Positions 12,511 through 57,665 are shown, counted from the stretch's first letter. The stretch: DNA of 64,000 bases from Alphaproteobacteria bacterium (GCA_041287865.1 JBGGMV010000072.1:41978-105977); one strand, 5' to 3'. A program made the numbers and translations. Notes: generated by a model from the sequence alone, not told the origin.

Positions 12511-12532
12511 ATATAACATCTCACAGTTATAT
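12511..12532. promoter_or_regulatory. Inverted repeat ATATAAC-N8-GTTATAT in the uraH/puuE divergent promoter region
   Basis: 7-bp perfect arms at 12511-12517 and 12526-12532, in the AT-rich 206-bp gap between divergent purine-catabolism genes. Candidate operator. Confidence 0.3.
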
Positions 12533-12683
12533 TCGAAAGACAACCAAGGGGGGATCATGGCAATTCTATCGGGGTCTGCGGGGAAACATGGCGGGCGTCG
12601 CGAGACGACGTTGCGCGGTGAAAACCAGAACAAGCGCTTCCACACATTCCCCTTGTTGCGCGTAACCGGAGTTGTAAGGCCAC

Positions 12684-14181: not shown

Positions 14182-15297
14182 TTATTCTTCTATCCCGAAG
14201 ACTTTCAATCCATGGATGCCGCCGTTGTCGTAGTGCATGTAGAGCACATGCGTCACGGGGCCGACGTCGTTCACGTCGCGGAAACGGTGAAAAGTATCGG
14301 GCGACAACGGCTCAAACGGCACAACCGCTTTCCAGGGGCAGCCCTTGGGGATGTTCAGGCGGATGCGGAAATGCTCGTTATCCTTCACGCCTTTTTCCTT
14401 CAGGTATTTCTGGTTCATCATGTAATCGCTGAAGTTGTCGGGAACGACGACTTTCTTGCCGTCAAAAACCGCGCACCATTTGGGCGCCTGTTTCATCAGC
14501 TTGTTGATGTCCTTGCCCTTGGCGTCGATGGCAAAGACATGCGCTGTCAGCGGCGCATTCAGGCGGTGCAGGTAGGTGTCGACCATCACTTCGTCGATCA
14601 CGGCGGGTTTTTTCAAATGAAACAACGCCTGTTCGCCGCAACCGGTGCGGGCCGATTCCCAGCCGTACATATACATCTGCTGGCGGTCGCCGCCGACGCA
14701 GCGATCGGGCACGCCGTAATGCACGTTTGACACATGGGTGATCTTCGCGCCCACCAGCAAATCCTTCTTTGCGGGAGGCTGCTCGACGCCGGTATCGCCA
14801 AAGAAGTTGATGCGGCTCAATCCGCCTTCGTAATAAACCTCGACATAGGCCTGTGTTGCGATCACGGGCTTGATCTTGAAAACATGCTCGCTGTCGGGTT
14901 TCAGGCTCTGGCGCTCCAGCACCTGCTGCGCGTTGCCGGTCAGCTCGTCAGTCAGGTAGACGGAAACGGCGCGCACCTGGTTGCCGGTGTACCATTTGGT
15001 GCTGATGGTGATTTTATCGATCTTGCCGCGTTTTTTCAGGCCGATCAGCATCCAGCCATGCGCGTTATGGTCGTATTCCAGTTCGTTCTCGCCCGGCACG
15101 ACCGTGGTCGCCATGTGGCGACGTGATTCAAAACCCCAGTATTTCGCGCCCATGTGCGTGAAATCGCCGCGGCAATCCTTCGGCTCGGTGGCCAGCATGG
15201 CTTCGTGCGGGTTGGTGAAATCCGATTCCGAATAAGCGATCAGGATGGCGGGAATGGGTTTTGCGGCTTTTGTCGTCGTTTTCTTTTTGGCGGGCAT
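14182..15297 (-). CDS. alc: Allantoicase-like protein (two allantoicase repeats), Lys-rich N-terminus
   Basis: Two repeats with WGFESRRH...TKWYTGNQV and YGWESART...VDTYLHRLNAP, resembling the allantoicase repeat pattern. The start is taken at MPAKKK (15297). The stop abuts the uraD stop with 0 nt between them. Confidence 0.7.
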   Translation of the reverse strand: MPAKKKTTTKAAKPIPAILIAYSESDFTNPHEAMLATEPKDCRGDFTHMGAKYWGFESRRHMATTVVPGENELEYDHNAHGWMLIGLKKRGKIDKITISTKWYTGNQVRAVSVYLTDELTGNAQQVLERQSLKPDSEHVFKIKPVIATQAYVEVYYEGGLSRINFFGDTGVEQPPAKKDLLVGAKITHVSNVHYGVPDRCVGGDRQQMYMYGWESARTGCGEQALFHLKKPAVIDEVMVDTYLHRLNAPLTAHVFAIDAKGKDINKLMKQAPKWCAVFDGKKVVVPDNFSDYMMNQKYLKEKGVKDNEHFRIRLNIPKGCPWKAVVPFEPLSPDTFHRFRDVNDVGPVTHVLYMHYDNGGIHGLKVFGIEE

Positions 15298-15375
15298 GGT
15301 GCAACCTTGGTTAAGCTTGTTTTGCTGCCCAAATTTATGCAACTATTAGCCAGCCATTGCAATCCGGAAAACATC

Positions 15376-37650: not shown

Positions 37651-37705
37651 TTGACATAACATTAAAACCATCCTAAAAAGTGTCGCGCTCGATTGGTTAT
37701 GTCAA
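37651..37705 (+). promoter_or_regulatory. Promoter-like TTGACA-N17-TAAAAA embedded in a 10-bp perfect inverted repeat
   Basis: TTGACATAAC (37651-37660) and GTTATGTCAA (37696-37705) are exact reverse complements 35 nt apart. The first arm contains the -35 hexamer, and TAAAAA lies at 37674-37679. Confidence 0.4.
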
Positions 37706-37739
37706 ACGGGCAGCGTGTCACTTTTTAGGAGTGTGTCCA

Positions 37740-39275
37740 GTGTCCTATTATTCTTCCTTCGGCAGTAACAATTCAATTTCCAGCATCAACAGAACGGTCG
37801 GCGAACTGATCGAAGATCAGGAAGCGGGTATCCGCACGCTCGAATCCGCAGCCTCCAACGTTGCGAGCGACAAGCGCTCCGCGCGTTCGCTGATGGAGCA
37901 GAGCATCCGCGCGCTGGTGAAGGTCGATGATAAAGACCGTTACGCCGAGCTGACCGCCGCCGCAAAAGCCGCGAACATCGGCCAGGATTACACCGCGACA
38001 GTCGCGGAATGGACGCGTCTCGACATCGTCAATCGCGACGAGAAAACCGGCCTCGTGAAAGCCTGGGGCAGCCGCACCGAAGTCGGCCAGAAAGCCGCCG
38101 ATGTTCACTCCGAAATCACGCTCATCAGCACGGCCCTTGCCGATATTTCGCCGCAGATCGACGCTTTCGACCTGACCACCGCGAAAATCAAGGCGCATAA
38201 CGAAAAATATAAAGAAAAGCCGAACGCGCAGATCACCGAAGAAAACCACGACGGCTTCGAAAAATTCAAGTTCGGCGCTTTCTGCAAGTGGGTGGTCGGC
38301 TGGTGCTTCGGCGCATGGGGCGGCGAATACAACGCCTACCGCGTCATCAACGGCTATACCAAGCAATATGGCGACTATTACGAAAGCGCCACCATCATCG
38401 CCAAGCAGCGCAAGAACGAAGAGAAACTGGAAGGCGACAAAGCCGAGAAGACCAAGGACTACAACCAGCTCTCCGGCATCTGCAACCGCATGGACCAGCT
38501 GGACGGCAGCTACAAAGGCCCGACGGGCATCGCCGAGGGCATCCGCTCCGCCATCATTTCGGCCCTGACCGGCAACCGCAACCTCGGCCAGGCGCTGATC
38601 AACGAAACGAAAACGGTTGAAGCCACCAACGCCACGCTCGGTCTCGAAAAACTGCTGGCGCTGGAACCGGTCGCCAAAGTCGCTTCCAGCCAGCTGGAGC
38701 AGGCCAAAGCAACGCTCCGCGATCTCGCGGATGTGAAGGACGACCTGCAAAGCGCCGTCGGCCGCGTCGGCAACCAGACGGTCAACTACGACCTCGACAA
38801 CCTGTCACGCAAGGTCAGCGCTGCCGCGAAAACCGCGCGCCGCACGGCCTCCAGCGTCAACGAAGCCAGCGACGCCATCGAGGTTTATCAGGTGCAGCAA
38901 GGCGCCAGCCAGTCCGGCATGGCCGATGCGTTGAAATCGAAAGGCGCGCTGGAATACACCAGCAACGCCCTGTCGCTCGATTTCGGCGGCCTGAAAACGG
39001 CCGTCTATAACGAAGTGCAGGAATACGAGCGCGAGCAGGCCCGCCTGCGCGAACTCGAGCGCCAGCGCCAGGCCGCGATCGAGGCCGAACGCCAGCGCAA
39101 GATGCAGGAGACCTTCAACGACATCGCCCGCGCGCAGGCCAACGCCGCCCGCAACAACCACCCCACGGTGTCCACGCCCAGCTACAACAACAGCAATGAT
39201 GACGACATCAGCTCCTCGACCTCCTCGCGTCGCGGCAATGATGACGACATCAGCGCAGGCCCTGCCCGCCGTTAA
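37740..39275 (+). CDS. Hypothetical long helical/coiled-coil protein with a central Trp/Gly/Cys-rich hydrophobic hairpin
   Basis: ORF 37680..39275. The start was moved to the GTG at 37740, 8 nt after TAGGAG. Hydrophobic segment FGAFCKWVVGWCFGAWGG lies at 38271-38324. Heptad-like Ala/Glu/Gln/Lys-rich sequence flanks it. The C-terminal tail carries a duplicated NDDDIS motif. No family was recognised. Confidence 0.6.
   Translation: MSYYSSFGSNNSISSINRTVGELIEDQEAGIRTLESAASNVASDKRSARSLMEQSIRALVKVDDKDRYAELTAAAKAANIGQDYTATVAEWTRLDIVNRDEKTGLVKAWGSRTEVGQKAADVHSEITLISTALADISPQIDAFDLTTAKIKAHNEKYKEKPNAQITEENHDGFEKFKFGAFCKWVVGWCFGAWGGEYNAYRVINGYTKQYGDYYESATIIAKQRKNEEKLEGDKAEKTKDYNQLSGICNRMDQLDGSYKGPTGIAEGIRSAIISALTGNRNLGQALINETKTVEATNATLGLEKLLALEPVAKVASSQLEQAKATLRDLADVKDDLQSAVGRVGNQTVNYDLDNLSRKVSAAAKTARRTASSVNEASDAIEVYQVQQGASQSGMADALKSKGALEYTSNALSLDFGGLKTAVYNEVQEYEREQARLRELERQRQAAIEAERQRKMQETFNDIARAQANAARNNHPTVSTPSYNNSNDDDISSSTSSRRGNDDDISAGPARR
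39193..39254 (+). repeat. Perfect 20-nt direct repeat inside the CDS (GCAATGATGACGACATCAGC x2)
   Basis: Copies at 39193-39212 and 39235-39254, with a 42-nt period. They encode the duplicated peptide NDDDIS. Confidence 0.9.
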
Positions 39276-39329
39276 CAAAATTACTTAAAAATACTCGAAC
39301 AAACCAACACAGAAGAAGGAAACGACAAC

Positions 39330-40610
39330 ATGGCTAACGAACCCACCAAGAGAGACGAGACGATTGCCAAGGTTTTCGCTGCCACCGCCGGCAACGACAA
39401 CGCGAACAAGTTTTATGAAGACGTCGTCAACTATGCGACCGCCGATGCAGATGCCAAGGCCCGCATGGACAAGCTGATCGCCACCATCGACAGCAAAGAC
39501 CTCAACACCATCACCATCTTCGCGAAAGAACCGACCGACGCTCTCAGAAAATCGTCGGAAGACATCGTGAAGCGCGCGCAGGGTGCAACCTCGTTCCTCG
39601 GCGCCTTCGGCTCGATCAAGGACAAGCTCGCCAACTTCGACTTCAACACCGTCGGCAAGATGGCAGGCGACTACGCGAAAATGGTCGACCGCAAGCTCTC
39701 GATGGCGGCTATTTCCTTCTGGAACAGCCCGATCAAGAAAATCTGGTACGCCATCACCGGCGTTACCGGCCGCAACGCCTCGATGGACAAGATTTCCCAC
39801 GAAATCGACAAGTCCCTCATCCAGCTGGGCGACGTGATGGCCGACCTGGAACAGTCGAAAGACAAGATCCCGGGCGTCCAGACCGACCTCAACACGCTGG
39901 AAGCGGCTCGTCTTGCTTCCTACAGCGAATACGGCCTCTACCTCGGCGCCGCGCTGGAAAAACTGCGCCGCGTGCAGGAAGAACTGCCGAAACTGCAGGA
40001 AGAAGCAGGCTCCAGCCCGCTGAAACAGGCTGAATACCGCAACGCGAAAATCGCGATGACGGTTCTCAACGCCAAGTGCACCGACATGGACAGCTTCCAC
40101 AAGACGAGCCTTGTGCAGCTGAAAACCATCGACGACCTGCAGGAAGCGCTTGCCATGTGCTCGCTCAAGATCGACAGCCACCTGACGATCTCGCAGGGCC
40201 AATGGACGGCGCTGCTGGCCGAAGCCGCAACTGCGGTCCAGATCGGCAACATGGCGCAGACCGTTGCCGCTGCTGACGCCTTCGGCGACAAGATCTTCGA
40301 ACAGACCCAGTCGCTCGCCGACATGACGAAGGCGCTTGCCCGTTCGTCCTTCGGCCATGGTACGCTGGATCCGGTGAAGGTTGTCCAGCACCTGCAAAAA
40401 CGCACGCAGGACATCAAGGACGACATGGTCTTCATCGATCAGTTCAACGCCAAGATGGTCGAACAGCGCGCGCAGCTTGATGAAGCCGGCCGCCAGTTCC
40501 GCCTTGCTGCAACGAAAGTCTACGATCCTGCTGCTACCAAGCAGGTTGCTGACGACGCCATCAAGGCGCTGCCGGCACCCTCCGCAGCTTCGAAGCAGCC
40601 CAGCCTCTAA
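39330..40610 (+). CDS. TelA-like (toxic anion resistance family) helical protein
   Basis: 426 aa. Its order of conserved patches resembles TelA/KlaB/YceH as I remember it: DLNTITIFAKEPTDALRKSSEDIV, LEAARLASYSEYGLYLGAALEKL, TISQGQWTALL, GTLDPVKVVQHLQKRTQDI. The RBS is GAAGGA. Confidence 0.5.
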   Translation: MANEPTKRDETIAKVFAATAGNDNANKFYEDVVNYATADADAKARMDKLIATIDSKDLNTITIFAKEPTDALRKSSEDIVKRAQGATSFLGAFGSIKDKLANFDFNTVGKMAGDYAKMVDRKLSMAAISFWNSPIKKIWYAITGVTGRNASMDKISHEIDKSLIQLGDVMADLEQSKDKIPGVQTDLNTLEAARLASYSEYGLYLGAALEKLRRVQEELPKLQEEAGSSPLKQAEYRNAKIAMTVLNAKCTDMDSFHKTSLVQLKTIDDLQEALAMCSLKIDSHLTISQGQWTALLAEAATAVQIGNMAQTVAAADAFGDKIFEQTQSLADMTKALARSSFGHGTLDPVKVVQHLQKRTQDIKDDMVFIDQFNAKMVEQRAQLDEAGRQFRLAATKVYDPAATKQVADDAIKALPAPSAASKQPSL

Positions 40611-40636
40611 ACCTAAAACGGCAGGAGCCGACCGTC

Positions 40637-42088
40637 ATGGCATCAGATCAGAACCCCGTCAGCAAGTTGTTCAACAGCGGCGCCAACGCGCCCCTTGCAA
40701 AACGGGCCCGAATCGATGGCCGGACGGTCGGCTTCACGCCTGAGGGCGAGAATTCCGACGTTGTCGAATGGATGGGCATGACGCCCGTTCCCGGCAACAA
40801 GCACGGCTGGTACGTCATCACCGTGCAGGAAGAACCGAACAAGTATAACAAGAGCGTGCCGCAGGGCGAGGTTATTGTTCGCGTCGTCAAGACGCTCGGC
40901 ACCGACAAGGAAGGCCCGCTGACCTTCGAAAAAGCGGTGGAGTATCTGGCCGTGTGGGAATTGGCCCGCATGGCGAAGGGCGCTTCGCCCATTCCCGGCA
41001 ACGACCGCGCCGGCGTGGGCCGTCACCACTTCAAAGACATCCTGATGCGCAAGAATTGCCTTGTCAGCATCACGGGCCAGATCGCCGAAGTGGCCGACAT
41101 CTATCCTGCCAACGAGGGCAAGTTCCTGAAAGCCGACCTCGACGCGCTGCAGCAGTTCCAGGAAGGCCTGCGCGGCGAGAATATCCTGAACGAGCTGATC
41201 CACAGCAAAGATCCCCTGTTCGTCTCCGAAACCTCGCTCGACGACGACCTCGACAGCTTCGGCGAAATCAGCATGTTCGAAAACATGGCTTTCTTCACCG
41301 ATATCCTTGTTCATTACGCCGGCGTGAAGCTGGAACAGGTGCAGAAGTTCTTCGAAGACCCGACCCGCAAGGATCAAATTGATCTTCCGGCAGCCATGTC
41401 GCAGGACAAGTTCTTCACGCCCGAGAAAATCGCCAAGATCAACGAGCTGAAGGCCGAGCTGGCCGACGGCATCTTCCGCGCCTGCCATGTCGCGCGCGAA
41501 GACTGGGATAGCACGATCGACCTGAACAGCCGCCAGGTGCGCGTTGAGCTGATGAAAAACCCCGAAGCCGTCGAGACGCTGCGCTATCTCGACCACAAAA
41601 TCGGCTATCCGCTGAAAGAAGCCGATGTCGACAGTATCCTGTTTACCGCCGCCCGCGGCCTCGATTATTTCCGCCAGCTGCTTGCCGACAGCAAGCAGAA
41701 GGACCTGATGGAGCGCAAGGGCGTTTACAAGCAGGGCGATATCGACGACCTGCTCAACTACCTCGACTTGCTCGACCTGAAATACGAATACAAGAACCTG
41801 GCCGAGCGCGCCGTGACGCTGCCCGGCACCAAGCGTTCCGCCGAGCTGGAAGAGAAAAAAGAAGCCTTCAAGATCATGGTCGAGGAATTCAAGCAGACCC
41901 TGAAACGCGGTCAGGATTACTCCCCCGCGATGGAAAAACAGGTCGACGATTTCATCCGCGCCGGCACCCCCGTCTATCTGCTCGACCGCATCGCCACGAT
42001 GCCCGAGCGGATGGACAAGGCGAAGCAGTTCGTGCGTGACCGCCTGTTGCCGCCGCCGGTCAAGCCGGCCACGCCGCCGAAGCCGTAA
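40637..42088 (+). CDS. Hypothetical protein (483 aa), mostly helical, Pro/Lys-rich C-terminal tail
   Basis: Long ORF with an AGGAG RBS and host-like codon usage. No recognisable catalytic or nucleotide-binding motif. Ends LLPPPVKPATPPKP. Confidence 0.6.
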   Translation: MASDQNPVSKLFNSGANAPLAKRARIDGRTVGFTPEGENSDVVEWMGMTPVPGNKHGWYVITVQEEPNKYNKSVPQGEVIVRVVKTLGTDKEGPLTFEKAVEYLAVWELARMAKGASPIPGNDRAGVGRHHFKDILMRKNCLVSITGQIAEVADIYPANEGKFLKADLDALQQFQEGLRGENILNELIHSKDPLFVSETSLDDDLDSFGEISMFENMAFFTDILVHYAGVKLEQVQKFFEDPTRKDQIDLPAAMSQDKFFTPEKIAKINELKAELADGIFRACHVAREDWDSTIDLNSRQVRVELMKNPEAVETLRYLDHKIGYPLKEADVDSILFTAARGLDYFRQLLADSKQKDLMERKGVYKQGDIDDLLNYLDLLDLKYEYKNLAERAVTLPGTKRSAELEEKKEAFKIMVEEFKQTLKRGQDYSPAMEKQVDDFIRAGTPVYLLDRIATMPERMDKAKQFVRDRLLPPPVKPATPPKP

Positions 42089-42114
42089 TAAGAAAAGTTT
42101 AGAGGGAGTTCATT

Positions 42115-43134
42115 ATGCCTTTCAAATTCAATCCGAATAAAAAAAGCGACGACAAGGGCCTCGGCAAGATCAATATCGAGGGCGACGGCACGGCGCAGAG
42201 CAATGCCGACAAGCAGGTTGCAGCCGAAAACGCCGCAGCCGCGACACGCAAGAAATGGATCATCGGCGGCGGCGTTGCGGGCCTCGCGCTCGTCGTCGGC
42301 CTGACGGCTGTCTTCTCGGGTGCGTCGAAGAACGACAACACGCCCCCCGCGCCGCAGCCCACGCAGCAAACCCAGCAACAGCAACCCACGCAGCCGCAGT
42401 ATCAGGAGCCGCAGGGCCAGTACACCGCGCCCGCCGCAACGGCCAGCCAGCTGCTGCAGCAGAGCGTCCGTGCCAAGGAAAGCGTCATTTACCGCGACGA
42501 GTCAGCCGTCTTCCACGACAAGGCTGGCCGCCCCGCAGAGGCCTACCTGACCGTTGACGGCCGCGAAGTGCAGAAGGGGCAGGATTTCGCTGTCCATGCC
42601 GCGCTGTTCAACAAGGGCGGTTTCAGCCTGCTCATCGCCTCCGGCCCCTATGCCGGCACGCGCCTCGAAGTGTTCCCCGTCAACAACAACGGCGGCTCGC
42701 GCTTCACCTACACCAAAACCGGTCAGGAAGCTGTCGGTTCTGATGGTCGCACCGTTGTTTTCAACGCTACGCCCGCATCGCAGCGCCTGACGCAGACTGT
42801 GTCCATGAAATCCCCCACGCAGCTGGGTTCCGGCGTGCAGGCGCCCTCCAACGGCTGGACGTTCGAGCAGATGGGTCAGGGCTCCAAAGGCTACACCCGC
42901 GCGTTCGAGCTGAAGGGCAACCCCGATGACGGCGTCTTCTCGGTCAAGCTCTGGAACGACGATACCTTTACCTTCAACCTGAAGAACGGCGAATACACAT
43001 TTGACAGCGTCTTCCTCTTCCACCCCAACTATCTGCAGACAGGGGAAAGCGTCAAAGGCACTCCGGTCGTGAATGGAGCGATGAATTTCGCCCCGGCCGC
43101 AGCACCCGTGCGCGCAAGCAAGCCGGGATTGTAA
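42115..43134 (+). CDS. Hypothetical single-pass membrane protein with Q/P-rich linker and beta-rich C-terminal domain
   Basis: GAGGGAG RBS. TM helix WIIGGGVAGLALVVGLTAVF, then the linker PPAPQPTQQTQQQQPTQPQYQEPQGQ. The C-terminal roughly 220 aa are rich in short alternating strands. Confidence 0.6.
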   Translation: MPFKFNPNKKSDDKGLGKINIEGDGTAQSNADKQVAAENAAAATRKKWIIGGGVAGLALVVGLTAVFSGASKNDNTPPAPQPTQQTQQQQPTQPQYQEPQGQYTAPAATASQLLQQSVRAKESVIYRDESAVFHDKAGRPAEAYLTVDGREVQKGQDFAVHAALFNKGGFSLLIASGPYAGTRLEVFPVNNNGGSRFTYTKTGQEAVGSDGRTVVFNATPASQRLTQTVSMKSPTQLGSGVQAPSNGWTFEQMGQGSKGYTRAFELKGNPDDGVFSVKLWNDDTFTFNLKNGEYTFDSVFLFHPNYLQTGESVKGTPVVNGAMNFAPAAAPVRASKPGL

Positions 43135-43173: not shown

Positions 43174-43204
43174 TCAGGCCGCCGTAACGCGGCCTGATTT
43201 TTTT
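43174..43204 (+). terminator. Intrinsic terminator of the four-gene operon
   Basis: TCAGGCCGC-CGTAAC-GCGGCCTGA followed by TTTTTTT, located 40 nt after the stop at 43134. Confidence 0.85.
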
Positions 43205-43212
43205 GAGGCGGG

Positions 43213-44112
43213 CTAAAAGGGATAATCCGGCATCGGTTTCGACGGCGGGTTGGGCGGCTGCGGTGTCACCGGTTTCGGTGGCGTCTTGCCCGAGACGGCG
43301 TTGAAGGCCGGGCAGATGTCTTTCGCGCGGCAGAAACGGCATTGCTTGGCGGCATTGGCGTTCAGCGTCAAGTCATCCTTGTTCTTGCTGATCTGAAACA
43401 GCTTGTGCTCCGTCACCGCCTGCGCAACGCCTGCCTTGGCGTCCTTGGCGAAGGCGCGCAGCTCGGTGGCGCTGACGCTGGTCTCGCTGGTATGGCGCAG
43501 GCGCGGCATGTGGATGACCATGTTGATGGTGGTGATGTCGATATCCTTGCCGTAAGCCTCGAGCGCGCCGGCGGCATAGGTCATCAGCTGGGTGTTGTTC
43601 TTGGCGTTGATTTTAGATGACTGGCCGTACTTGAAATCCTCGACCGATATCAGGCCCGTGCCGTCCTTGAATTCCACGACGATCAGGGTATCGGCAATGC
43701 CCGACTGGCCGGGCACGCCCACCACGGGGCTGGTGTCGATGCGTTTTTCGACGTGAAGGTTCACGTTCTTGACGTTCGCATCGGCCTTGTAGGCGTCGAT
43801 GCGGTTTTTGACGTGGTCGACATAGGTCTGCGCGTGCTTGCACATTTCCGCGTCGACGGTGAATTCGTATTTCGTTTCTTGCGGCGTGCCTTTATGGCTG
43901 TGGAGCAGGATTTTCTTGCCCATATAGGCCTTGGCATCGAACCCGCCGTCGGTCAGCGCCCATTGTGCGAGCGTGTGCGCGGCATGGCCTTCGTCGGTGA
44001 AGAAAGTTTCCTTGCGCGGCACGGTTTGTTCGAGCGCGACCGAGCCCGGGCAGGCGATCACGCGGTCAAGCGTCGAGGCAGGAAAGGTCAGTCGTTTTTG
44101 CGGCTGCGCCAT
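43213..44112 (-). CDS. Cas4/RecB-family PD-(D/E)xK nuclease with four-Cys (Fe-S) signature
   Basis: N-terminal Cys (VIACPGS) plus the C-terminal CRFCRAKDIC (CX2CX5C). Nuclease motifs GIADTLIVV and VEDFKYG (DxK), and QLMTY (QxxxY). Pro-rich tail KTPPKPVTPQPPNPPSKP. Confidence 0.7.
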   Translation of the reverse strand: MAQPQKRLTFPASTLDRVIACPGSVALEQTVPRKETFFTDEGHAAHTLAQWALTDGGFDAKAYMGKKILLHSHKGTPQETKYEFTVDAEMCKHAQTYVDHVKNRIDAYKADANVKNVNLHVEKRIDTSPVVGVPGQSGIADTLIVVEFKDGTGLISVEDFKYGQSSKINAKNNTQLMTYAAGALEAYGKDIDITTINMVIHMPRLRHTSETSVSATELRAFAKDAKAGVAQAVTEHKLFQISKNKDDLTLNANAAKQCRFCRAKDICPAFNAVSGKTPPKPVTPQPPNPPSKPMPDYPF

Positions 44113-44185
44113 CGGTCTAGTCCCTAAATGCTTTAAACAATAGGGAAACTATATTATGTATAGAGATCGAAGGCAACCGATATTT

Positions 44186-44203
44186 ATACTGTAAAAACAG
44201 TAT
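44186..44203. promoter_or_regulatory. Perfect palindrome ATACTGT-AAAA-ACAGTAT upstream of the nuclease gene
   Basis: 7-bp arms in the AT-rich 101-bp gap (44113-44213), 74-91 nt upstream of the nuclease ATG. Candidate operator. Confidence 0.4.
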
Positions 44204-44213
44204 GTTATCCGCG

Positions 44214-44864
44214 TTACTCTTTCAGCTTCACGGTAATCGTGCCGTCGCCGACCTTGATATCCTCGACACCTTCCGAGAAAGCCTTCCAGAAACCCGCGTC
44301 GCCGAATTCATGCACAAGGTCGACATTTTTTAAGTTACCGAGCCAGCTGTTCGGGATAGCGACGCCCCAGACGGTCACGCCCTTCAGGATCACGATCGGG
44401 CGCCTGTCGCCGAATTTCAGCTCGAGGCCCGCGGAAATGCGCAGGATCTTGCCGCCGACAATCGGCAGCTCGGGGTCGAGCGGCACCAGCGCCTTCGCGC
44501 TGACGAGGTCAGGCGAAAGATCAATGGCGACGCGCGATGCCAGGTCGGCGTTGCCATTGGCGACCAGCGCGTTGATCTCGCGCTCGGTAAAGGTGATCTG
44601 GTGCGAGGCATTGGTCTCGGTGTATTTTTCGGGGACAAGCTCGCCTTTGGGCGTGTCGACCTTGACGGGCTCGCCGATTTCGATACCCAGCGCATGAACC
44701 TTGCTGTCCAGCGTAACCTTTTCCTTGCTGCTCAGTGTCACGGGGCTGAAGGCGGAGGGGAAGAGCCATGCATGGATCAGGAAGACAACGACAATGGTCG
44801 TGACAACCGATATGGCGACGGTCATCAGCGTGTTGTTTTTCTGCTTCGGTGCGGGTTCGGTCAT
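44214..44864 (-). CDS. Hypothetical N-terminally membrane-anchored protein
   Basis: TM helix LMTVAISVVTTIVVVFLIHAWLF followed by a soluble domain of about 170 aa. The start overlaps the upstream stop (ATGA). Confidence 0.6.
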   Translation of the reverse strand: MTEPAPKQKNNTLMTVAISVVTTIVVVFLIHAWLFPSAFSPVTLSSKEKVTLDSKVHALGIEIGEPVKVDTPKGELVPEKYTETNASHQITFTEREINALVANGNADLASRVAIDLSPDLVSAKALVPLDPELPIVGGKILRISAGLELKFGDRRPIVILKGVTVWGVAIPNSWLGNLKNVDLVHEFGDAGFWKAFSEGVEDIKVGDGTITVKLKE

Positions 44865-45397: not shown

Positions 45398-47044
45398 TTA
45401 TGCCTTGCGCTGCAGCCAGCCGCGGTAATGGACGATCAGGCCGGTCAGCGGATGCGAAATCTTGACGTCGAAATTAAAGCGCCCGTCCTGAACGAATTCG
45501 CTGCCAACCGCGCGCGGGCCCAGCCATAGCGGCAGCGGCAGGCCGAGAATACTCCAGCGGCGCAGGACAAGCAACAAGCGCCCGTTTTCCTCCACCAGCG
45601 CAAGCGCGAAGGCGAGGGGGCCGAAACGCTCTATCATCAGCCGCGCCGAACGCCCCGTGCCGGGGTAAATGCGGCTGCTGAACCGGCTGTCGCCGAAACT
45701 GCGCGTCCATTTCTCCGTCGCACCCTTGACGTCGAATCTCACGCTAATGGGCAGGTTTTCGCCCGCAGGCGGAAAGCGCATCAACAGGCAGGCGAGTTTT
45801 GCCAGCAGACCGCTGCCGCGCGCGACCGATCCGGTGCCTTCGGCCGTCGTCAGGCCTTCCACGCCGTGCATGTCGCGTAAAGCTTGCGGCAGCCTGTCCC
45901 AGGCGTCGCCGAGGATACGGCGGTGCAGCGGCAGCGCTTCTTCCGCTGTATCGTTATGCGTGCCGGTATAGATTGTGCGCGGGGAGAATTGCGCGTGATA
46001 ATCCTCCAGCGTTATATCATCCAGCGCCGCGCGTGCGCCTGCTGCGAATTTTTCACCGGCAAGGCGTCTTGCTACCAATGACGCCGCCGGCATCGAGGGG
46101 ATCAGCGGGCCATCGGCGCCTTCGGCCAGCAGGTGCCATGATTTCGTCACGCCGCCGCCAGACACTTCCACGAACATGCCGCCCCGGTGCTCGCCCCAGC
46201 TGAGCCTGCAGACCGCCCAGTACATCAGCGGCGCAAGGCGGGCCAGAGATTTGACAAGGCCAAGGCGCACCAGCCATGCAAAACCAACCAGCGACCAGTG
46301 CAGCGGCTCCGGCACCGGCCCCGCGCCCATCCAGACATGCGCGTCCGGCCAGATTTTGCGCAGGATGCGCAGGTCAGGCACATCGACCAGCGAGAACAGG
46401 CGGTTGCCGACGGGCACGCGGCCCGGCACGGCGATGGTATAGCGCATGATTTCGGTGAGGGGCCGCGCCCTGCGCCCCCCCGCATCGATATCCTGCCCCG
46501 CATAACCTGCGATCACGCGGATAACGTTCATGCCGACATTGGCGAAGGGGGAGGGCGCAATGCCGCCCTTGATGCTCTCCACCTTCGGCATATCGGCCGA
46601 CAATTGCCGCACGACGGCGGCGGTCAGCACGGGAAAACTCGACACGCCTGACAGCACGAAGACTCCTGCCGCTTTGGCCGCTGCGTCATGCGCGGAAATG
46701 CCCATGACGAAGTCGGAGCTATCGGCAAGGTCGATATAATTGATGCCGCCACGGATGCAGGCCTCGACCAGTTTATAGGCGTCGCTGCCGTAATCCTGAA
46801 ACGGGCCGCTGGCGTCCACAACGATATCGGGCTTGAAGGGCGAGGGATCTGCTCCGCGATCGAACTGCGCGGGCACCAGCTTCGCCTTCGCACCCGTGCG
46901 GGCGGCGCACCAGGCCTTGGCCTTGTCGAGCGAGCGGCCGGCAATGATGAAGGTCAGCCCCTCATGATGCTCCAGCAGCTCGACCATGCGTCCGCCGAAG
47001 GTGCCGTAGCCGCCTACAACGAGGATGGTGAGCGCGCCGGACAT
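45398..47044 (-). CDS. Saccharopine dehydrogenase-like NAD(P)-binding protein with DUF4166-like C-terminal domain
   Basis: N-terminal Rossmann motif ILVVGGYGTFGGRMVELL. The C-terminal half resembles DUF4166 as I remember it (weak). Confidence 0.6.
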   Translation of the reverse strand: MSGALTILVVGGYGTFGGRMVELLEHHEGLTFIIAGRSLDKAKAWCAARTGAKAKLVPAQFDRGADPSPFKPDIVVDASGPFQDYGSDAYKLVEACIRGGINYIDLADSSDFVMGISAHDAAAKAAGVFVLSGVSSFPVLTAAVVRQLSADMPKVESIKGGIAPSPFANVGMNVIRVIAGYAGQDIDAGGRRARPLTEIMRYTIAVPGRVPVGNRLFSLVDVPDLRILRKIWPDAHVWMGAGPVPEPLHWSLVGFAWLVRLGLVKSLARLAPLMYWAVCRLSWGEHRGGMFVEVSGGGVTKSWHLLAEGADGPLIPSMPAASLVARRLAGEKFAAGARAALDDITLEDYHAQFSPRTIYTGTHNDTAEEALPLHRRILGDAWDRLPQALRDMHGVEGLTTAEGTGSVARGSGLLAKLACLLMRFPPAGENLPISVRFDVKGATEKWTRSFGDSRFSSRIYPGTGRSARLMIERFGPLAFALALVEENGRLLLVLRRWSILGLPLPLWLGPRAVGSEFVQDGRFNFDVKISHPLTGLIVHYRGWLQRKA

Positions 47045-47055
47045 TTGGGGTCAGC

Positions 47056-47325
47056 TTATTTTTTGGGTTTGAGGAATTTCTTCTTCAGCTGCTCGAGGCT
47101 CGGGCCCTGCACGACGCCGGTCATGTCGAGCGGCTTGGCGCGGTCTTCGATGATTTCTTTCAGAATGCCCGCATACTGGCCCAGCATGGCCGCGCGATGG
47201 TCCTGGCATTCGATCTTTGCCTGTTTCGAGGCTTTGTCGAATTGTGCTTTCAGGTCGGCATCGTCGAGAACGGAGTCGAGGAAGTCTTTCACGTCTTCGC
47301 GTTGTTGTTTGTTGAAGAAGGGCAT
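47056..47325 (-). CDS. Hypothetical small charged helical protein (89 aa)
   Basis: First ORF of the minus-strand operon. The RBS is AAGGA. 11 nt separate it from the next gene. Ends KKKFLKPKK. Confidence 0.5.
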   Translation of the reverse strand: MPFFNKQQREDVKDFLDSVLDDADLKAQFDKASKQAKIECQDHRAAMLGQYAGILKEIIEDRAKPLDMTGVVQGPSLEQLKKKFLKPKK

Positions 47326-53815: not shown

Positions 53816-55918
53816 TTAACGCGCATGCCCGATCCTCCTGCGCCGCTGATGCAGGGCGGCAAGCAAAGCCATCAATCCGATCACGGCAAGGCCCGCGACG
53901 GTGGAAGGCTCCGGCACCGATCCGCCGGAGAAAGAGGCGATATGCTCCATGCTGCTGCCATAGGCCTTTTGCGTCACGCCTTTCACCATCGGCAGCGGCA
54001 CATTTGTCTGCTGCGCCAGCTCCGGATGTTCATTGACGATCTTTTTCGAGACGGCGACGAAGGATGTCCAGCGTGTGACGAGCCCGAAATCGAGGCCGAG
54101 GCCGGTGACTTCCGTTTTCAACGCGTCATCCGACATGCCATCGGCGCGGAAAGCGGGCGGCATGTTCAGCTGGCGCATGTCCTCGGCGATTTTCGTGCGC
54201 GCCCAGATCAGCGGGATGGGGTTGTTCGTGTCATCTGAACTGTCAGGGAAATCGACCGTGACGGGCAGCGTGGCCTTGCGGCCGTTCACCATGGCGCGGA
54301 CGGTGACGGTATGCTTACCGGGCTCCGTATATTTCCCCTGGATGCGGATCGCGCCGCCGGCGAAGAGGTCGGGGATGATCTGCGGCGTCTGGTCGGCCAC
54401 TTTCAGGCGGCCCCAGTCGAGCCTGATATCGGTCAGCACCGGCGTTTCCAGCTTTCCGGCCAGCTGTATCGCGACGTCATCGGCCTTTTCGGTCGGGTCG
54501 ATAAAGCGCGCAAAGCCGCGGCCCATGCGGCCCATTTCCTCGAGCAGGAAGCGGTTGACGGAAGTGCCGACGCCCAGCGCATAGACGCGCGCGGCCCCCA
54601 TTTTCGAGGTCATGGTATTCAGCACTTCGGATTCGTTGCCGATATAGCCGTCGGTCAGTAAAACGACGATACGCAGCGTGCCTGCCTGCGGCGGCATGCT
54701 GAAGGCCTGCACGATCGCCTTGTTCGCCTCCGTGCCGCCGTCGGCCTGCAGAGCGTTCACGTAGTCGAGCCCGCGCTGGACGTTGTCGGGCGTCGCTGGC
54801 ACGGGGCCGGTGGTGAATTCCTCGGCATTGTTACTGAAACGGATGATGCGGAAATAATCACCCGGGCGCAGCGCCGCCAGCGCATGCTTCATGAAGACCT
54901 TGCAGGTGGCGACGGGCCGACCGTTCATCGAGCCCGAGGTGTCGACGACGAAAACCATTTCGCGCGGCACGATATCGGCGCTTTCGGGCAGTACGGGCGG
55001 TTCCAGCTGCAGGCTGAAAAATCCGCCGCGCTCGCCCTTGTGCGCCAGCAGGCCCGCCTGCGGCAATGTGCCGCCAAGGCTGTAGCGCAGCACGAAATCG
55101 GCGTTGTCGATCGTCCGGCCGGAGGCGAGCCTGATCACGCGGCGGTTGTCGGAAATTCTCTCCTCGGCGATGTCATGCGTCCTGCTGCTGATGCCGGTGA
55201 TGGGCAGGCCGCTGTCGAGCCGCACCTCGATCGACACGCGGTCTTTCTCGATGGTGTCGGGAATGGTCAGCCCCGCAACAGCGGGATAGGCGGGAAGCTG
55301 CTCTACCTCCCACTGGCCGAATTTATCCTTGCTGCCGGTTTGTGTAAGCGGCGTGGGCGCAACGCCCGCGCCCTTCGGCTGGTAGCGGGGGCCCACGACC
55401 AGCGGCAGCACCAGTTCATACTGGCTGTCAACCTTGGGCAGGGCATATACATAGGTCAGGGTGACTTCGACGGGCTTGCCGGGCATCAGGTTGGCGATGT
55501 CCTGCGTGAACATGTTCGGGCGGTGCTCGACCAGCAGCGAGGCCGCCTTGCCTTCGCTCTTGGCGGTTTCGAAGACTTGTTTAGCCTCCTCGATGCGGTG
55601 GATTTTGGCTTCGACGCGTTCGTCGCCGACGATCATCACCATCTTGTGCACGGCGGCGTCGTGCTGCAGCGGGAAAAGATATGTCGCATGCAGCGGCTTT
55701 TCGTAAGGGTTGGAGAAGGTTTGCTTCACCGTCACGCTCGCAAGGTCGCCCTTGATATCGGCGACGATATCTTCCCTCAGCAGCGGGAAGCTGACCTGCT
55801 GGCCGTCCATCGCGGCCTCTATCCGTCCCCCCACGATATCGGTTGAAACATCGGCGCGGGCGGCGGGTGCGAGCAACAGCAGCGTTACGAAAAGGGATAA
55901 ATTAATGAATTTCAGCAT
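53816..55918 (-). CDS. VIT plus von Willebrand factor A domain protein with PEP-CTERM sorting signal
   Basis: Signal peptide. VWA MIDAS motif VVDTSGSM. The C-terminus VPEPSTVAGLAVIGLMALLAALHQRRRR combines a PEP motif, a TM helix and a basic cluster. Confidence 0.8.
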   Translation of the reverse strand: MLKFINLSLFVTLLLLAPAARADVSTDIVGGRIEAAMDGQQVSFPLLREDIVADIKGDLASVTVKQTFSNPYEKPLHATYLFPLQHDAAVHKMVMIVGDERVEAKIHRIEEAKQVFETAKSEGKAASLLVEHRPNMFTQDIANLMPGKPVEVTLTYVYALPKVDSQYELVLPLVVGPRYQPKGAGVAPTPLTQTGSKDKFGQWEVEQLPAYPAVAGLTIPDTIEKDRVSIEVRLDSGLPITGISSRTHDIAEERISDNRRVIRLASGRTIDNADFVLRYSLGGTLPQAGLLAHKGERGGFFSLQLEPPVLPESADIVPREMVFVVDTSGSMNGRPVATCKVFMKHALAALRPGDYFRIIRFSNNAEEFTTGPVPATPDNVQRGLDYVNALQADGGTEANKAIVQAFSMPPQAGTLRIVVLLTDGYIGNESEVLNTMTSKMGAARVYALGVGTSVNRFLLEEMGRMGRGFARFIDPTEKADDVAIQLAGKLETPVLTDIRLDWGRLKVADQTPQIIPDLFAGGAIRIQGKYTEPGKHTVTVRAMVNGRKATLPVTVDFPDSSDDTNNPIPLIWARTKIAEDMRQLNMPPAFRADGMSDDALKTEVTGLGLDFGLVTRWTSFVAVSKKIVNEHPELAQQTNVPLPMVKGVTQKAYGSSMEHIASFSGGSVPEPSTVAGLAVIGLMALLAALHQRRRRIGHAR

Positions 55919-57398
55919 AGGCGATCTCCTGGGCGTGGTGAGGGGTTAAGTCGAGGGCGGAAAAAACGGCACCGTCCCACTGCCGCGCTTCTGCGTCCGG
56001 CAGGGTGGCGGGGGTGATGCGTTGCAGGGCGTGCCATGTGGTGCCGGGGCGCTGCATCCAGCGCCAGACGGCTTCGGCGACATTGCTGGCGGTTTTGTCG
56101 CGGCCGGCATAAAAGGTCACGGCGATCCGCCATTGCGCGCCATCCGGCGATGTTGCGATATAAGTGGCGGTCGGCAGCGGGGCATAGCTCATGCCTTTAT
56201 AGTCAACGGCAAACCCCATGCCGCGCAGGCATTCATCGGGCGCATGCAGGTGGCGCAGGGGCGAGGACGTCTGGATCAGCATCACGCTGTTATCGCCATA
56301 GGCCATTTTCTTCGCCATGCCGCCGAATTGCAGGAAGTAGTCTTTCTCGCGGGCGGCAAGCTCGACAGGCCTGCCATAACTGCCATCAATTGAAAGCGGC
56401 AGTGCAATTTCAACGGGCGCGGCGGCGGCGACATCCACGGGCTTGCGCGGCAGGGCGACAATAGCGGCGGCGAGGATCAGGAACAGGCAGGCGGGCAGCC
56501 ATGTGACAGGTCTTACCTGCCGCACCGGCGCGGAGGTAACGGCGGTGCGTGCTTGCGGGATGCGGCTGCACAGGAAAATCAGCGGTGCCGCCGCCGCCGC
56601 CAGAAAGACAAGGCCGGTGATATCATGCCAGGGCTGCGCCATCACGTCGATGCCCGCAACGGGGTGCGCGATCAGCGCGGCAAGCACGGTGATGCGGAGC
56701 GCATTGGCGATCAAAACGCCCGCCAGCGTGGCAAACCCGATCAGCGCGGCGCGCGTGAAATTCGGCCTGTAAACCGCCATCAGCGACGCATAGAGGATGC
56801 AGATTAGAATCAGCATGCGCGCGCCGGAGCAGGGCAGGTCCACCAGAACGTCATGGCCGCTGACGATGATGCGCGCGCCGTTGCAGGCGACATCGTCGAA
56901 AAATCCCTTCAGCGTCAGGCAGGCGCCGCCCGCCGACACCTGCTGCAGCAGGAAACCGCCGACACGCTGCAAAATGCGCTCTAGGGGCAGGCAGAAAGCG
57001 AAGAGCAGCGCCAGCCAGCCGGGGGAGAGTGCGCGCCTGCGGCCCTTCAGCCCCGCCAGCAGCCCGAGGGCATAAACGTCGATCACCAGCGCCAGCGCGC
57101 CGATCACGTTCACCGCCAGCACCTGCCCCGCGCCCCGCACCAGCGTCGTTGCGGCAAGCAGCAGCCAGGCTTTACGGTGGTCAAGCTGCTGCGCCGTGCG
57201 CCCGCTCGACAGGCTCCAGCCAATCAACGCCACGCAGAGCGCAAAAACCCAGAGGCCTTTCGAATCATAAGCGGGATCTGTCCAGGACGCCGCAAGCCAG
57301 CGCAGCGGCTCGGCCGCCATCAGCAGCATGCCCGCGCCGATAACGGCCTTGCGGGGGTCAAATGGTAACGCGGGGGATGTGATAATTGTTTGCTGCAT
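55902..57398 (-). CDS. Exosortase fused to an EpsI-like C-terminal domain
   Basis: Polytopic membrane N-terminal part with a conserved Cys context (DLPCSGARML). Soluble C-terminal domain of about 190 aa. The stop overlaps the start of the PEP-CTERM substrate gene by 17 nt. Confidence 0.7.
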   Translation of the reverse strand: MQQTIITSPALPFDPRKAVIGAGMLLMAAEPLRWLAASWTDPAYDSKGLWVFALCVALIGWSLSSGRTAQQLDHRKAWLLLAATTLVRGAGQVLAVNVIGALALVIDVYALGLLAGLKGRRRALSPGWLALLFAFCLPLERILQRVGGFLLQQVSAGGACLTLKGFFDDVACNGARIIVSGHDVLVDLPCSGARMLILICILYASLMAVYRPNFTRAALIGFATLAGVLIANALRITVLAALIAHPVAGIDVMAQPWHDITGLVFLAAAAAPLIFLCSRIPQARTAVTSAPVRQVRPVTWLPACLFLILAAAIVALPRKPVDVAAAAPVEIALPLSIDGSYGRPVELAAREKDYFLQFGGMAKKMAYGDNSVMLIQTSSPLRHLHAPDECLRGMGFAVDYKGMSYAPLPTATYIATSPDGAQWRIAVTFYAGRDKTASNVAEAVWRWMQRPGTTWHALQRITPATLPDAEARQWDGAVFSALDLTPHHAQEIAYAEIH

Positions 57399-57580: not shown

Positions 57581-57665
57581 GCTGGAAACGTCAATTTCGG
57601 TAAAGCAGATTACGCTGAATCACCTTGCGCGTTCAACATTAATTAAACCCTGTAATAACAGTAAT

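What the first reader, a model, noticed from the sequence alone, without database searches (positions are those of the whole stretch)
43213..44112. Orphan Cas4/RecB-type Fe-S nuclease with no CRISPR, no phage genes and a proline-rich tail
Seen: the 299-aa ORF carries the full PD-(D/E)xK set (GIADT, EDFKYG, QLMTY). It also has the Cas4/AddB cysteine pattern: one N-terminal Cys in IACPGS plus CRFCRAKDIC, which is CX2CX5C. No cas genes, CRISPR repeats, recombinase, helicase or phage structural genes occur in the window. The protein ends in a 25-aa Pro-rich tail that I do not associate with Cas4-like enzymes. The gene sits exactly where two operons of unknown function meet and has its own AT-rich upstream region with a perfect palindrome. 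Inference: it is either a stand-alone DNA end-processing or defence nuclease, or the effector of one of the flanking modules.
Basis: partly seen in the sequence, partly recalled or inferred. Interest (0 to 1): 0.55.

Follow-up and report, generated by a model that had tools for sequence, protein, structure and literature searches.

The report
Stand-alone phage-type DUF2800 nuclease gene
The ORF is a real, intact iron-sulfur "Cas4/RecB-like" DNA nuclease of the well-known phage family DUF2800. It survives as a shortened single gene in the chromosome of a Micavibrio-like bacterium, is not tied to either neighbouring gene cluster, and is mildly interesting rather than new.

Summary
Observation confirmed. 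ORF 43213-44112 (-) encodes 299 aa with all the motifs named. D141, D159-x-K161, Q175...Y179 and C21/C258/C261/C267 are invariant in 120 homologues.

It is a clear member of Pfam DUF2800 (E 1.8e-47) and PHROG 69 "exonuclease". The confident AF2 model matches Cas4-family nucleases: ACE1, AdnA, Cas4, MGME1, Dna2 and AddB.

DUF2800 is a common phage protein of about 400-460 aa. It normally sits in a duf2800-gp2.5-polA replication/recombination module.

The window protein belongs to a small monophyletic clade of about 300-aa proteins (99/100 bootstrap) in Micavibrio-like Alphaproteobacteria. This clade has lost the C-terminal domain and the family's acidic [DE][DE]F tail. It carries a basic, Pro-rich tail instead.

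Neighbours are conserved only within the genus. More distant members sit in unrelated housekeeping contexts. The TelA-like cassette and the upstream 216-aa gene occur elsewhere without it, so it is not an effector of either flank.

dN/dS is 0.20 and codon usage is host-like, which argue for a maintained host gene. tRNA or integrase neighbours in some relatives point to a mobile-element origin.

The upstream palindrome is not conserved and not statistically remarkable.

Verdict: a new member of a known kind; low-moderate interest.

The parts
43213..44112 (-). DUF2800-family PD-(D/E)XK / Cas4-like nuclease gene, 299 aa plus stop
   Evidence: ORF list and sequence. Pfam DUF2800 E 1.8e-47 and PDDEXK_1 E 5.8e-7. 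PHROG 69 'exonuclease' E 8e-50. AF2 model pLDDT 89.4. Foldseek hits to ACE1, AdnA, Cas4, MGME1, Dna2 and AddB and to phage DUF2800 models with TMq up to 0.77.
44050..44052 (-). Codon of Cys21, the N-terminal ligand of the predicted [4Fe-4S] cluster (IACPGS)
   Evidence: Invariant in 120 homologues.
43576..43749 (-). Catalytic core: E122, D141 (GIADT), D159-x-K161 (EDFKYG), Q175...Y179 (QLMTY)
   Evidence: All invariant in alignments A1 and A2. Mutation of the equivalent D/K pair abolishes the activity-dependent phenotype of phage Bas14 DUF2800 (bioRxiv 10.64898/2026.07.14.737667).
43312..43341 (-). C258-X2-C261-X5-C267, the C-terminal three ligands of the predicted Fe-S cluster
   Evidence: Invariant in 120 homologues. 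The spacing is that of Cas4/AddB (established knowledge of those families).
43216..43290 (-). Disordered basic, Pro-rich tail (residues 275-299) ending in PDYPF
   Evidence: pLDDT below 50. 11 Pro in 25 residues, net charge +2. The DYPF tip is invariant in the five closest sequences while the linker varies. No other subclade shares the tip.
44148..44176 (-). Sigma-70-like promoter TTGCCT-17-TATAGT
   Evidence: Consensus scan. The same arrangement, TTGCCC-17-TACAGT, is kept in the orthologous Micavibrio locus L003. Function is inferred, not shown.
44120..44146 (-). 5' leader with Shine-Dalgarno AGGGA (44121-44125) able to pair with an upstream UCCCUA
   Evidence: Sequence. Predicted hairpin in both window and L003, but the z-scores are not significant (-0.7 and -1.1).
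44186..44203 (.). Perfect 7+4+7 palindrome ATACTGTAAAAACAGTAT, 11 nt after the stop of the upstream gene; probably of no regulatory meaning for the nuclease
   Evidence: 5.9% of spacer shuffles give one. Not conserved in L003.
43174..43197 (+). GC-rich hairpin plus T-run between the convergent genes; terminator of the + strand cluster. On the minus strand no T-run follows it.

Best explanation
The gene encodes an active, single-domain, [4Fe-4S]-containing PD-(D/E)XK DNA nuclease of the phage DUF2800 family.

Origin (inferred from the tree and the contexts):
- An ancestor of a Micavibrio-like alphaproteobacterial lineage captured it from a phage or integrative element.
- It lost the family's C-terminal domain and the acidic partner-docking tail.
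- It has since been kept as a stand-alone chromosomal gene transcribed from its own promoter.

Mechanism (inferred from the fold family):
- The four cysteines clamp the N-terminal helix to the C-terminal helices around an Fe-S cluster.
- E122, D141 and D159 hold the catalytic metal and K161 activates water.
- Q175 and Y179 position the terminal nucleotide.
- A single-stranded DNA end is threaded in and degraded, as in Cas4, AddB, AdnA and Dna2.

Without a fused helicase or an adjacent annealing protein, it most likely trims or resects free DNA ends in the cytoplasm. This could serve repair or recombination, or degradation of linear foreign DNA. It is not part of the TelA-like cassette or of the upstream cluster.

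Shown: family membership, intact motifs, fold, loss of the C-terminal parts, lack of conserved neighbours, purifying selection.
Inferred: Fe-S content, substrate, polarity, cellular role.
For: Family and fold:
- Pfam DUF2800 at 162.8 bits, covering only profile positions 4-235 of 368.
- PHROG 69 'exonuclease'.
- AF2 pLDDT 89.4 and pTM 0.84.
- Foldseek PDB hits: ACE1 4e-7, AdnA nuclease domain TMq 0.54, Cas4, MGME1, Dna2, AddB, lambda Exo, RecE.
- BFVD phage DUF2800 models at E 1e-21 to 1e-15, TMq 0.66-0.77.

Motifs: catalytic residues and the four Cys are invariant in 120 sequences.

Phage origin:
- 1367 phage records carry relatives.
- The long forms in APSE-1, BPP-1 and L010 sit next to a Gp2.5-like/Enc34 ssDNA-binding protein and a DNA polymerase (PMC8093625; PMC3424549).
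- The short clade is monophyletic (99/100) and nested among long forms.

Loss of the docking tail:
- 152 of 234 other members carry [DE][DE]F in the last 30 aa, with mean net charge -3.4.
- 0 of 14 short-clade members carry it, with mean net charge +5.4.

Host maintenance:
- dN/dS 0.20 and dS 0.58 against the Micavibrio orthologue, like the flanking genes.
- GC3 0.81, like the neighbours, with no compositional break.
- A genome whose purine-catabolism genes are 56-78% identical has the nuclease at 49% and lying next to those same genes.

Independence from the flanks.
Against: - No biochemical data exist for this protein or for any short-clade member.
- Fe-S binding and exonuclease polarity are extrapolated from Cas4, AddB and AdnA.
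- Three relatives lie beside or near tRNA genes and one lies near an integrase. Repeated mobile-element transfer, rather than vertical inheritance, is therefore not excluded.
- Only about 14 sequence clusters make up the clade. Almost all come from metagenomes and the taxonomy of most is unknown.
- I could not see the rest of the genome. I therefore do not know whether AddAB/RecBCD, a gp2.5-like protein or a prophage lies elsewhere.
Confidence: 0.62

Rival explanations
1. It is a leftover or cargo gene of a decayed prophage or small integrative element. It has no role for the host, is still intact by chance, or spreads horizontally as a selfish or anti-defence gene.
For: - The family is overwhelmingly a phage family.
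- In L009 the short-form gene lies in a 3.4-kb stretch between tRNA-Phe and tRNA-Thr, together with a tyrosine integrase.
- In L007 a tRNA-Gly lies 74 nt downstream. In L008 a tRNA-Ser lies 2.3 kb upstream.
- The neighbours differ in every lineage.
Against: - No other phage or integrase gene occurs within 64 kb, and the nearest tRNA is 13 kb away.
- Composition is host-like.
- dN/dS is 0.20 and dS equals that of the flanks.
- All catalytic and Cys residues are kept across 48-96% identity.
- The clade is monophyletic with one shared truncation.
- No att-like direct repeats were found in L009.
Confidence: 0.22
2. It is a component of a defence system. It could act as a Cas4-like partner in the way ACE1 works with Argonaute. 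It could also be the nuclease effector of the neighbouring TelA-like cassette or of the patatin/DUF4166 cluster.
For: - The best solved-structure match is the Argonaute-associated Cas4-family protein ACE1.
- There are weak PADLOC hits to Aga_Cas4-like_Nuc (E 0.0018) and Cas4 (E 0.0035).
- A patatin-like phospholipase 3.3 kb away matches PADLOC phospholipase effector models.
- TelA-family proteins have been linked to phage and colicin resistance (own knowledge).
Against: - No Argonaute, cas genes or CRISPR array in the window.
- No flank protein other than the patatin-like phospholipase hits PADLOC.
- The TelA cassette is conserved in L017, L018 and L019 without the nuclease.
- The nuclease occurs in five other contexts without the cassette.
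- The 216-aa upstream gene occurs without it in M. aeruginosavorus and in L021.
Confidence: 0.08
3. It is a bona fide CRISPR-type Cas4 that has become separated from its array.
For: Same Cys pattern and fold class as Cas4.
Against: - The Pfam Cas4 family is not hit at E <= 1, whereas DUF2800 scores 162.8 bits.
- The nearest relatives are all DUF2800 proteins of phages.
- There is no cas gene or array.
Confidence: 0.02

Closest known systems
Phage DUF2800 (PF10926 / PHROG 69) exonucleases, e.g. APSE-1 P51, Bordetella phage BPP-1 Bbp38, phage Bas14 B14T
   Same: - Same family by profile.
- 35-40% identity over the nuclease domain.
- Same invariant PD-(D/E)XK residues and four Cys.
- Same predicted fold.
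   Different: - The phage proteins are about 400-460 aa. They have an extra C-terminal domain and usually an acidic [DE][DE]F tail.
- They lie in a duf2800-gp2.5-polA module (PMC8093625).
- The window protein is 299 aa, lacks both features and has a basic Pro-rich tail.
- It sits alone among housekeeping genes.
Solo-Cas4 / pfam12705 Cas4-like proteins (Hudaiberdiev et al. 2017, PMC5704561)
   Same: A stand-alone Cas4-superfamily Fe-S nuclease outside CRISPR loci. It appears to be vertically maintained, with selection pressure like that of ordinary genes.
   Different: It belongs to the DUF2800 branch rather than to Cas4 proper. It has a clear phage ancestry.
Nuclease domains of AdnA/AdnB, AddB and RecB, and Dna2
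   Same: Fold match (TMq 0.45-0.54) and the Fe-S 'staple' cysteine pattern. This is the likely chemistry of ssDNA end degradation.
   Different: Those domains are fused to helicase motors. This protein has no helicase, and none is encoded nearby.
ACE1, the Argonaute-associated Cas4-family enzyme (PDB 9IAB, 9IAC)
   Same: Best solved-structure hit, E 4e-7. Similar size, single domain.
   Different: Only 13% identity and TM about 0.4. There is no Argonaute in the window.
Lambda Exo / RecE type exonucleases of two-component phage recombination systems
   Same: PD-(D/E)XK exonuclease fold. In phages DUF2800 is paired with an annealing/ssDNA-binding protein in the same way.
   Different: Lambda Exo and RecE have no Fe-S cluster. 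Here there is no annealing-protein partner.

Membership tests
DUF2800 (PF10926) | Profile match above Pfam's gathering score | tested here: met
   162.8 bits against a cut-off of 21, E 1.8e-47. PHROG 69 E 8e-50.
DUF2800 (PF10926) | PD-(D/E)XK catalytic residues and four Cys conserved with the family | tested here: met
   E122, D141, D159, K161, Q175, Y179, C21, C258, C261 and C267 are invariant in 120 sequences.
DUF2800 (PF10926) | C-terminal part of the family profile (positions 236-368), which is the C-terminal domain of the 400-460 aa proteins | tested here: not met
   The match covers only profile positions 4-235 of 368. The alignment shows the domain is absent. This is a truncated member, not a non-member.
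DUF2800 (PF10926) | Context in a phage replication module (duf2800 - gp2.5-like SSB/annealase - polA) | tested here: not met
   No such genes in the window. The module is present in L010, APSE-1 and BPP-1.
Cas4 (CRISPR-associated) | Match to the Cas4 profile | tested here: not met
   Pfam lists only DUF2800 and PDDEXK_1 at E <= 1. The PADLOC Cas4 model gives only E 0.0035 and 15.7 bits.
Cas4 (CRISPR-associated) | Adjacent cas1/cas2 or a CRISPR array | tested here: not met
Cas4 / AddB-type Fe-S nuclease superfamily (PF12705 PDDEXK_1) | C-Xn-C-X2-C-X5-C ligand pattern framing a RecB-like nuclease core | tested here: met
   PDDEXK_1 at 30.1 bits against a cut-off of 22, spanning residues 12-268. 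The Cys pattern is invariant. Fold hits to Cas4, AddB, AdnA and Dna2.
Cas4 / AddB-type Fe-S nuclease superfamily (PF12705 PDDEXK_1) | Bound [4Fe-4S] cluster and metal-dependent ssDNA exonuclease activity | not testable with these tools
   Needs anaerobic purification, UV-vis/EPR and nuclease assays.
Helicase-nuclease end-resection machines (AddAB, AdnAB, RecBCD) | Nuclease domain fused to, or encoded with, an SF1 helicase | tested here: not met
   299-aa single-domain protein. No helicase in the window.
Argonaute-associated Cas4-like (ACE1) | Neighbouring prokaryotic Argonaute | tested here: not met
   No Argonaute/PIWI domain in any window ORF. PADLOC Aga_Cas4-like gives only E 0.0018.
TelA-like 4-gene cassette (window 37680-43134) | Co-occurrence of the nuclease with the cassette across genomes | tested here: not met
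   The cassette occurs without the nuclease in L017, L018 and L019. The nuclease occurs without the cassette in L005, the P0007 contig, L007, L008 and L009.

The most novel reading that the evidence does not exclude
A phage replication-module exonuclease was domesticated once in the ancestor of a Micavibrio-like lineage of predatory Alphaproteobacteria. It lost its phage-partner docking domain and acidic tail and gained a basic Pro-rich tail. In the Micavibrio subclade this tail ends in an invariant DYPF-COOH tip reminiscent of the SSB C-terminal D-I-P-F peptide. The protein now serves a host function such as helicase-independent DNA end resection, processing of prey-derived or foreign linear DNA, or recruitment to SSB-coated DNA.
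Probability: 0.3. Interest if true: 0.4.

Novelty: new member of a known kind. Interest (0 to 1): 0.2.

Why it matters
If the gene really is a host-maintained descendant of a phage DUF2800 exonuclease, it is a small, clean example of a phage replication/recombination enzyme being domesticated. It would also offer a minimal 275-residue catalytic core of a very common phage nuclease that has barely been characterised. A 2026 preprint implicates one family member as the trigger of retron type IX immunity. It does not open a new class of system. The main practical value is correct annotation (a DUF2800/Cas4-like nuclease, unlinked to its neighbours) and a compact construct for biochemistry.

Tried and rejected
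1. Upstream palindrome as an operator or SOS box. Rejected for these reasons:
- It is not conserved in the 83% orthologue.
- It appears by chance in 5.9% of shuffles of the spacer.
- It is not an alphaproteobacterial GTTC-N7-GTTC box (own knowledge plus reading of the spacer).
- Only one loose second copy exists in the window.

2. Effector of the TelA-like cassette. Rejected by the two-sided neighbourhood survey.

3. Operon partner of the 216-aa upstream gene. Rejected because that family has 444 clusters across Alpha- and Gammaproteobacteria and occurs without the nuclease.

4. Sequence search of the PDB found nothing meaningful. Only the fold search did.

5. NCBIfam has no model for the protein.

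6. Scans of genome contigs and metagenome contigs for close relatives gave only 2 and 0 useful loci, so the clade is rare in those collections.

8. Search for att-type direct repeats around the integrase-linked copy in L009: none convincing.

9. The SD-sequestering hairpin in the 5' leader is present in both window and L003, but the fold z-scores are not significant.

10. One Biopython tree run timed out. It was repeated with a faster distance routine.

Full report
**1. The observation**

The window holds an ORF at 43213..44112 on the minus strand that encodes 299 aa.
- IACPGS (C21).
- GIADT (D141).
- EDFKYG (D159, K161).
- QLMTY (Q175, Y179).
- CRFCRAKDIC (C258-X2-C261-X5-C267).

In an alignment of 24 homologues, and then of 120, these residues are invariant, together with E122, H46 and R204. 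The motifs are therefore real and far beyond chance. One small correction applies. The conserved acid of the (D/E)xK motif is D159, because E158 varies in other family members.

The last 25 residues contain 11 prolines and are predicted to be disordered.

I scanned all 47 larger ORFs of the window against Pfam. They encode housekeeping, membrane and regulatory functions:
- a trp operon, PEP carboxylase, AcrB, malate synthase and a purine-catabolism cluster;
- alpha-2-macroglobulin, an exosortase and others.

No cas gene, helicase, recombinase, integrase or phage structural gene is present. There is no CRISPR-like array. The only RNA gene is a tRNA-Ser 13 kb away.

**2. What the protein is**

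It is an unambiguous member of Pfam DUF2800 (162.8 bits against a cut-off of 21). It also passes the PDDEXK_1 threshold across residues 12-268. It matches PHROG 69, annotated 'exonuclease', at E 8e-50. NCBIfam has no model for it.

An AlphaFold2 model built on the 120-sequence alignment is confident (pLDDT 89.4, pTM 0.84).

Foldseek against the PDB returns only Cas4-superfamily and related exonucleases:
- the Argonaute-associated Cas4-family protein ACE1 (E 4e-7);
- the AdnA nuclease domain (TMq 0.54);
- type I-C Cas4, MGME1, Dna2 and AddB;
- then lambda exonuclease and RecE.

Against predicted viral structures, the best matches are phage DUF2800 proteins (E 1e-21 to 1e-15, TMq 0.66-0.77). A sequence-profile search of the PDB found nothing, so no family member has a solved structure.

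**3. What the family normally does**

DUF2800 was classified in 2012 as 'RecB-like, probable prophage proteins' (PMC3424549). It was later described as part of a conserved duf2800-gp2.5-polA module in phages of Gram-positive and Gram-negative hosts (PMC8093625).

My searches agree:
- 1367 phage records carry a relative, all below 60% identity.
- In APSE-1 (P51, 439 aa) and BPP-1 (Bbp38, 418 aa) the gene lies directly upstream of a Gp2.5-like ssDNA-binding/annealing protein and a DNA polymerase.
- A 458-aa metagenomic relative (L010) sits beside an Enc34-type ssDNA-binding protein, PolA, a VapE primase, SNF2, VRR-NUC and terminase.

A 2026 preprint shows that the DUF2800 nuclease of phage Bas14 triggers retron type IX. 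It also shows that mutating its D/K catalytic pair abolishes the effect (bioRxiv 10.64898/2026.07.14.737667).

The exhaustive representative search finds 7091 clusters at E <= 1e-3. Most of the best 150 are 390-460 aa long.

**4. How this copy differs**

The Pfam match stops at profile position 235 of 368. The alignment shows that the window protein and 13 related clusters (282-309 aa, 43-96% identity) lack the roughly 130-aa C-terminal domain.

A neighbour-joining tree of the nuclease domain places these short proteins in one clade, with 99/100 bootstrap support. The clade is nested among long forms. This points to one truncation event.

The family has a second hallmark that I noticed while checking other short members. 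152 of 234 other members carry [DE][DE]F within the last 30 residues, with mean net charge -3.4. Independent mini-forms of 239-277 aa keep this acidic tail directly after the Cys cluster.

The alphaproteobacterial short clade has it in 0 of 14 cases. Its tail is basic (mean +5.4) and Pro-rich (25%).

By analogy with acidic aromatic tails of phage replisome proteins and of SSB (own knowledge), the lost tail is probably a partner-docking peptide. Its loss fits a protein that no longer works with a phage partner.

Within the Micavibrio subclade the tip DYPF is invariant while the linker varies. The next subclade ends in NPRW, and others end differently. The tail is therefore lineage-specific.

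**5. Organism and neighbourhood**

The closest genome hit is an uncultured Micavibrio MAG with 83% protein identity. It has the same gene order: PEP carboxylase, ABC transporter, four-gene TelA-like cassette, nuclease, two small genes.

Beyond that genus the neighbourhood dissolves:
- At 65-67% identity the gene lies between cation-efflux/MFS genes and a CNNM/CorC gene.
- At about 50% identity one copy follows rpsA.
- Another lies next to a purine-catabolism cluster.
- A third lies between tRNA-Phe plus an integrase and tRNA-Thr.

The test works in the other direction too. The TelA-like cassette (about 500 aa, TelA-like 426 aa, about 488 aa, about 340 aa) is conserved in three further genomes at 44-58% identity, and no DUF2800 gene lies next to it.

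The co-directional upstream 216-aa gene belongs to a family of 444 clusters that spans Alpha- and Gammaproteobacteria. In Micavibrio aeruginosavorus and in another contig it stands without the nuclease.

No flank protein matches a PADLOC defence model except the patatin-like phospholipase. The nuclease itself gives only marginal hits to Cas4 and to the Argonaute-associated Cas4-like model.

The 'effector of a flanking module' reading is therefore not supported.

**6. Is it a living gene?**

- Composition is uniform across the region, and the gene's GC3 (0.81) equals that of its neighbours.
- Against the Micavibrio orthologue, dN/dS is 0.20 and dS is 0.58. Ten flanking genes span dN/dS 0.08-0.29 and dS 0.42-0.78. 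The gene has diverged together with its surroundings under purifying selection.
- The genome behind L008 shares purine-catabolism enzymes at 56-78% identity with the window. It has the nuclease at 49%, lying only about 1.3 kb from that cluster. This is compatible with old vertical inheritance and later rearrangement.
- A sigma-70-like promoter (TTGCCT-17-TATAGT, 44176-44148) and an AGGGA ribosome-binding site are kept in the orthologue.
- Against a purely vertical history, three relatives sit beside or near tRNA genes and one near an integrase. I found no att repeats there.

**7. The palindrome**

ATACTGTAAAAACAGTAT (44186-44203) lies 11 nt after the stop codon of the upstream gene and upstream of the -35 element. 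I give it no regulatory weight:
- 5.9% of shuffles of the 101-nt, 36% GC spacer contain a palindrome of that size.
- The window holds 53 such palindromes.
- The orthologous spacer reads GGCTGTTTTTGCTGCC, which is not a palindrome.

A loose second copy (CTGTAATAACAGTA) lies just after the stop of another minus-strand gene at 57647-57664. As RNA the first one folds better than shuffles (z -2.9). A weak post-gene hairpin is therefore possible.

**8. Mechanism**

Shown: fold class, catalytic set, Cys ligands and single-domain architecture.

Inferred from Cas4, AddB, AdnA and Dna2 (established knowledge):
- A [4Fe-4S] cluster ties the N-terminal helix (C21) to the C-terminal helices (C258, C261, C267).
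- E122, D141 and D159 bind the metal and K161 is the general base.
- Q175 and Y179 position the terminal nucleotide.
- The enzyme degrades single-stranded DNA ends.

With no motor and no annealing partner nearby, the most likely role is trimming or resection of free DNA ends in repair or recombination, or degradation of linear foreign DNA. I put 0.62 on 'functional, host-maintained solo DUF2800 nuclease'. I put 0.22 on 'mobile-element remnant or cargo without a host role', 0.08 on 'defence-module component' and 0.02 on 'true Cas4'.

**9. Comparison and novelty**

The protein is a truncated member of a named and abundant phage family. Functionally it parallels the solo-Cas4 / pfam12705 proteins discussed by Hudaiberdiev et al. 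They found those genes to be mostly vertically inherited, with ordinary selection pressure and unknown repair or defence roles (PMC5704561).

What is new is modest: a small monophyletic, chromosome-resident clade that has shed the family's C-terminal domain and acidic tail.

I rate it a new member of a known kind, with interest 0.2. The most novel reading not excluded is domestication with a new tail-mediated interaction. I give that a probability of 0.3 and an interest of 0.4 if true.

Noticed in passing
window 37680-43134 (+); also L003, L017, L018, L019: A four-gene cassette: about 500-530 aa with no Pfam hit, a 426-aa TelA-like protein, about 485 aa with no hit, and about 340 aa with an N-terminal TM segment and a Q/P-rich region. 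It is conserved as a unit in at least five genomes at 44-96% identity, in varying surroundings. The region has an unusually strong A-over-T skew (AT skew 0.19-0.32). Function unknown. It is independent of the nuclease.
   Followed up: partly
DUF2800 family at large (P0015-P0266), e.g. P0158, P0193, P0219, P0236, P0260: About two thirds of DUF2800 proteins (152 of 234) end in an acidic [DE][DE]F-type tail. Independent mini-forms of 239-277 aa keep this tail directly after the Cys cluster. It looks like a family-wide C-terminal docking peptide, and I found no description of it in the papers I read.
   Followed up: partly
window 57647-57664 and 44186-44203: Two related AT-rich palindromes with the core CTGTAAnAACAGTA. 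Each lies 1-11 nt after the stop codon of a minus-strand gene. They could be weak terminator hairpins or a small repeated element.
   Followed up: partly
window 44214-44864 (-): The 216-aa protein has an N-terminal TM segment and belongs to a large family (444 clusters). NCBI labels the family 'arginine N-succinyltransferase', yet it matches no Pfam or NCBIfam model. The name is probably a propagated misannotation.
   Followed up: partly
L009 7393-10996; L007 10974-11047; L008 7595-7686: Short-form DUF2800 genes in other genomes lie next to tRNA genes. In L009 the order is tRNA-Phe, tyrosine integrase, a 124-aa ORF, DUF2800, tRNA-Thr. This hints at a small integrative element as the vehicle.
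   Followed up: partly
window 44120-44146 (-) and L003 4655-4685: The 5' leader can pair UCCCUA with the Shine-Dalgarno AGGGA in both the window and the orthologue. This could be translational occlusion, but the fold z-scores are not significant.
   Followed up: partly
window 45398-47325 (-) versus L003 1905-3410: Local rearrangement between the two Micavibrio-like genomes. The window has a 548-aa saccharopine-dehydrogenase-like protein fused to DUF4166, with the Nif11-like 89-aa gene upstream of it. L003 has a 377-aa version for which no DUF4166 hit is listed, with the small gene downstream.
   Followed up: no
window 8849-15342 and L008 11589-17682: A purine-catabolism/glyoxylate cluster (malate synthase, urate oxidase, HIUase, PuuE-like deacetylase, allantoicase) is shared at 56-78% identity. 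In L008 it lies about 1.3 kb from the DUF2800 gene; in the window it is 28 kb away. In L008 the malate synthase gene is split into several ORFs.
   Followed up: partly
window 53816-57398 (-): A VIT/vWA protein of 700 aa is followed by an exosortase-family (EpsH) protein of 498 aa. This looks like a possible exosortase sorting-system pair.
   Followed up: no
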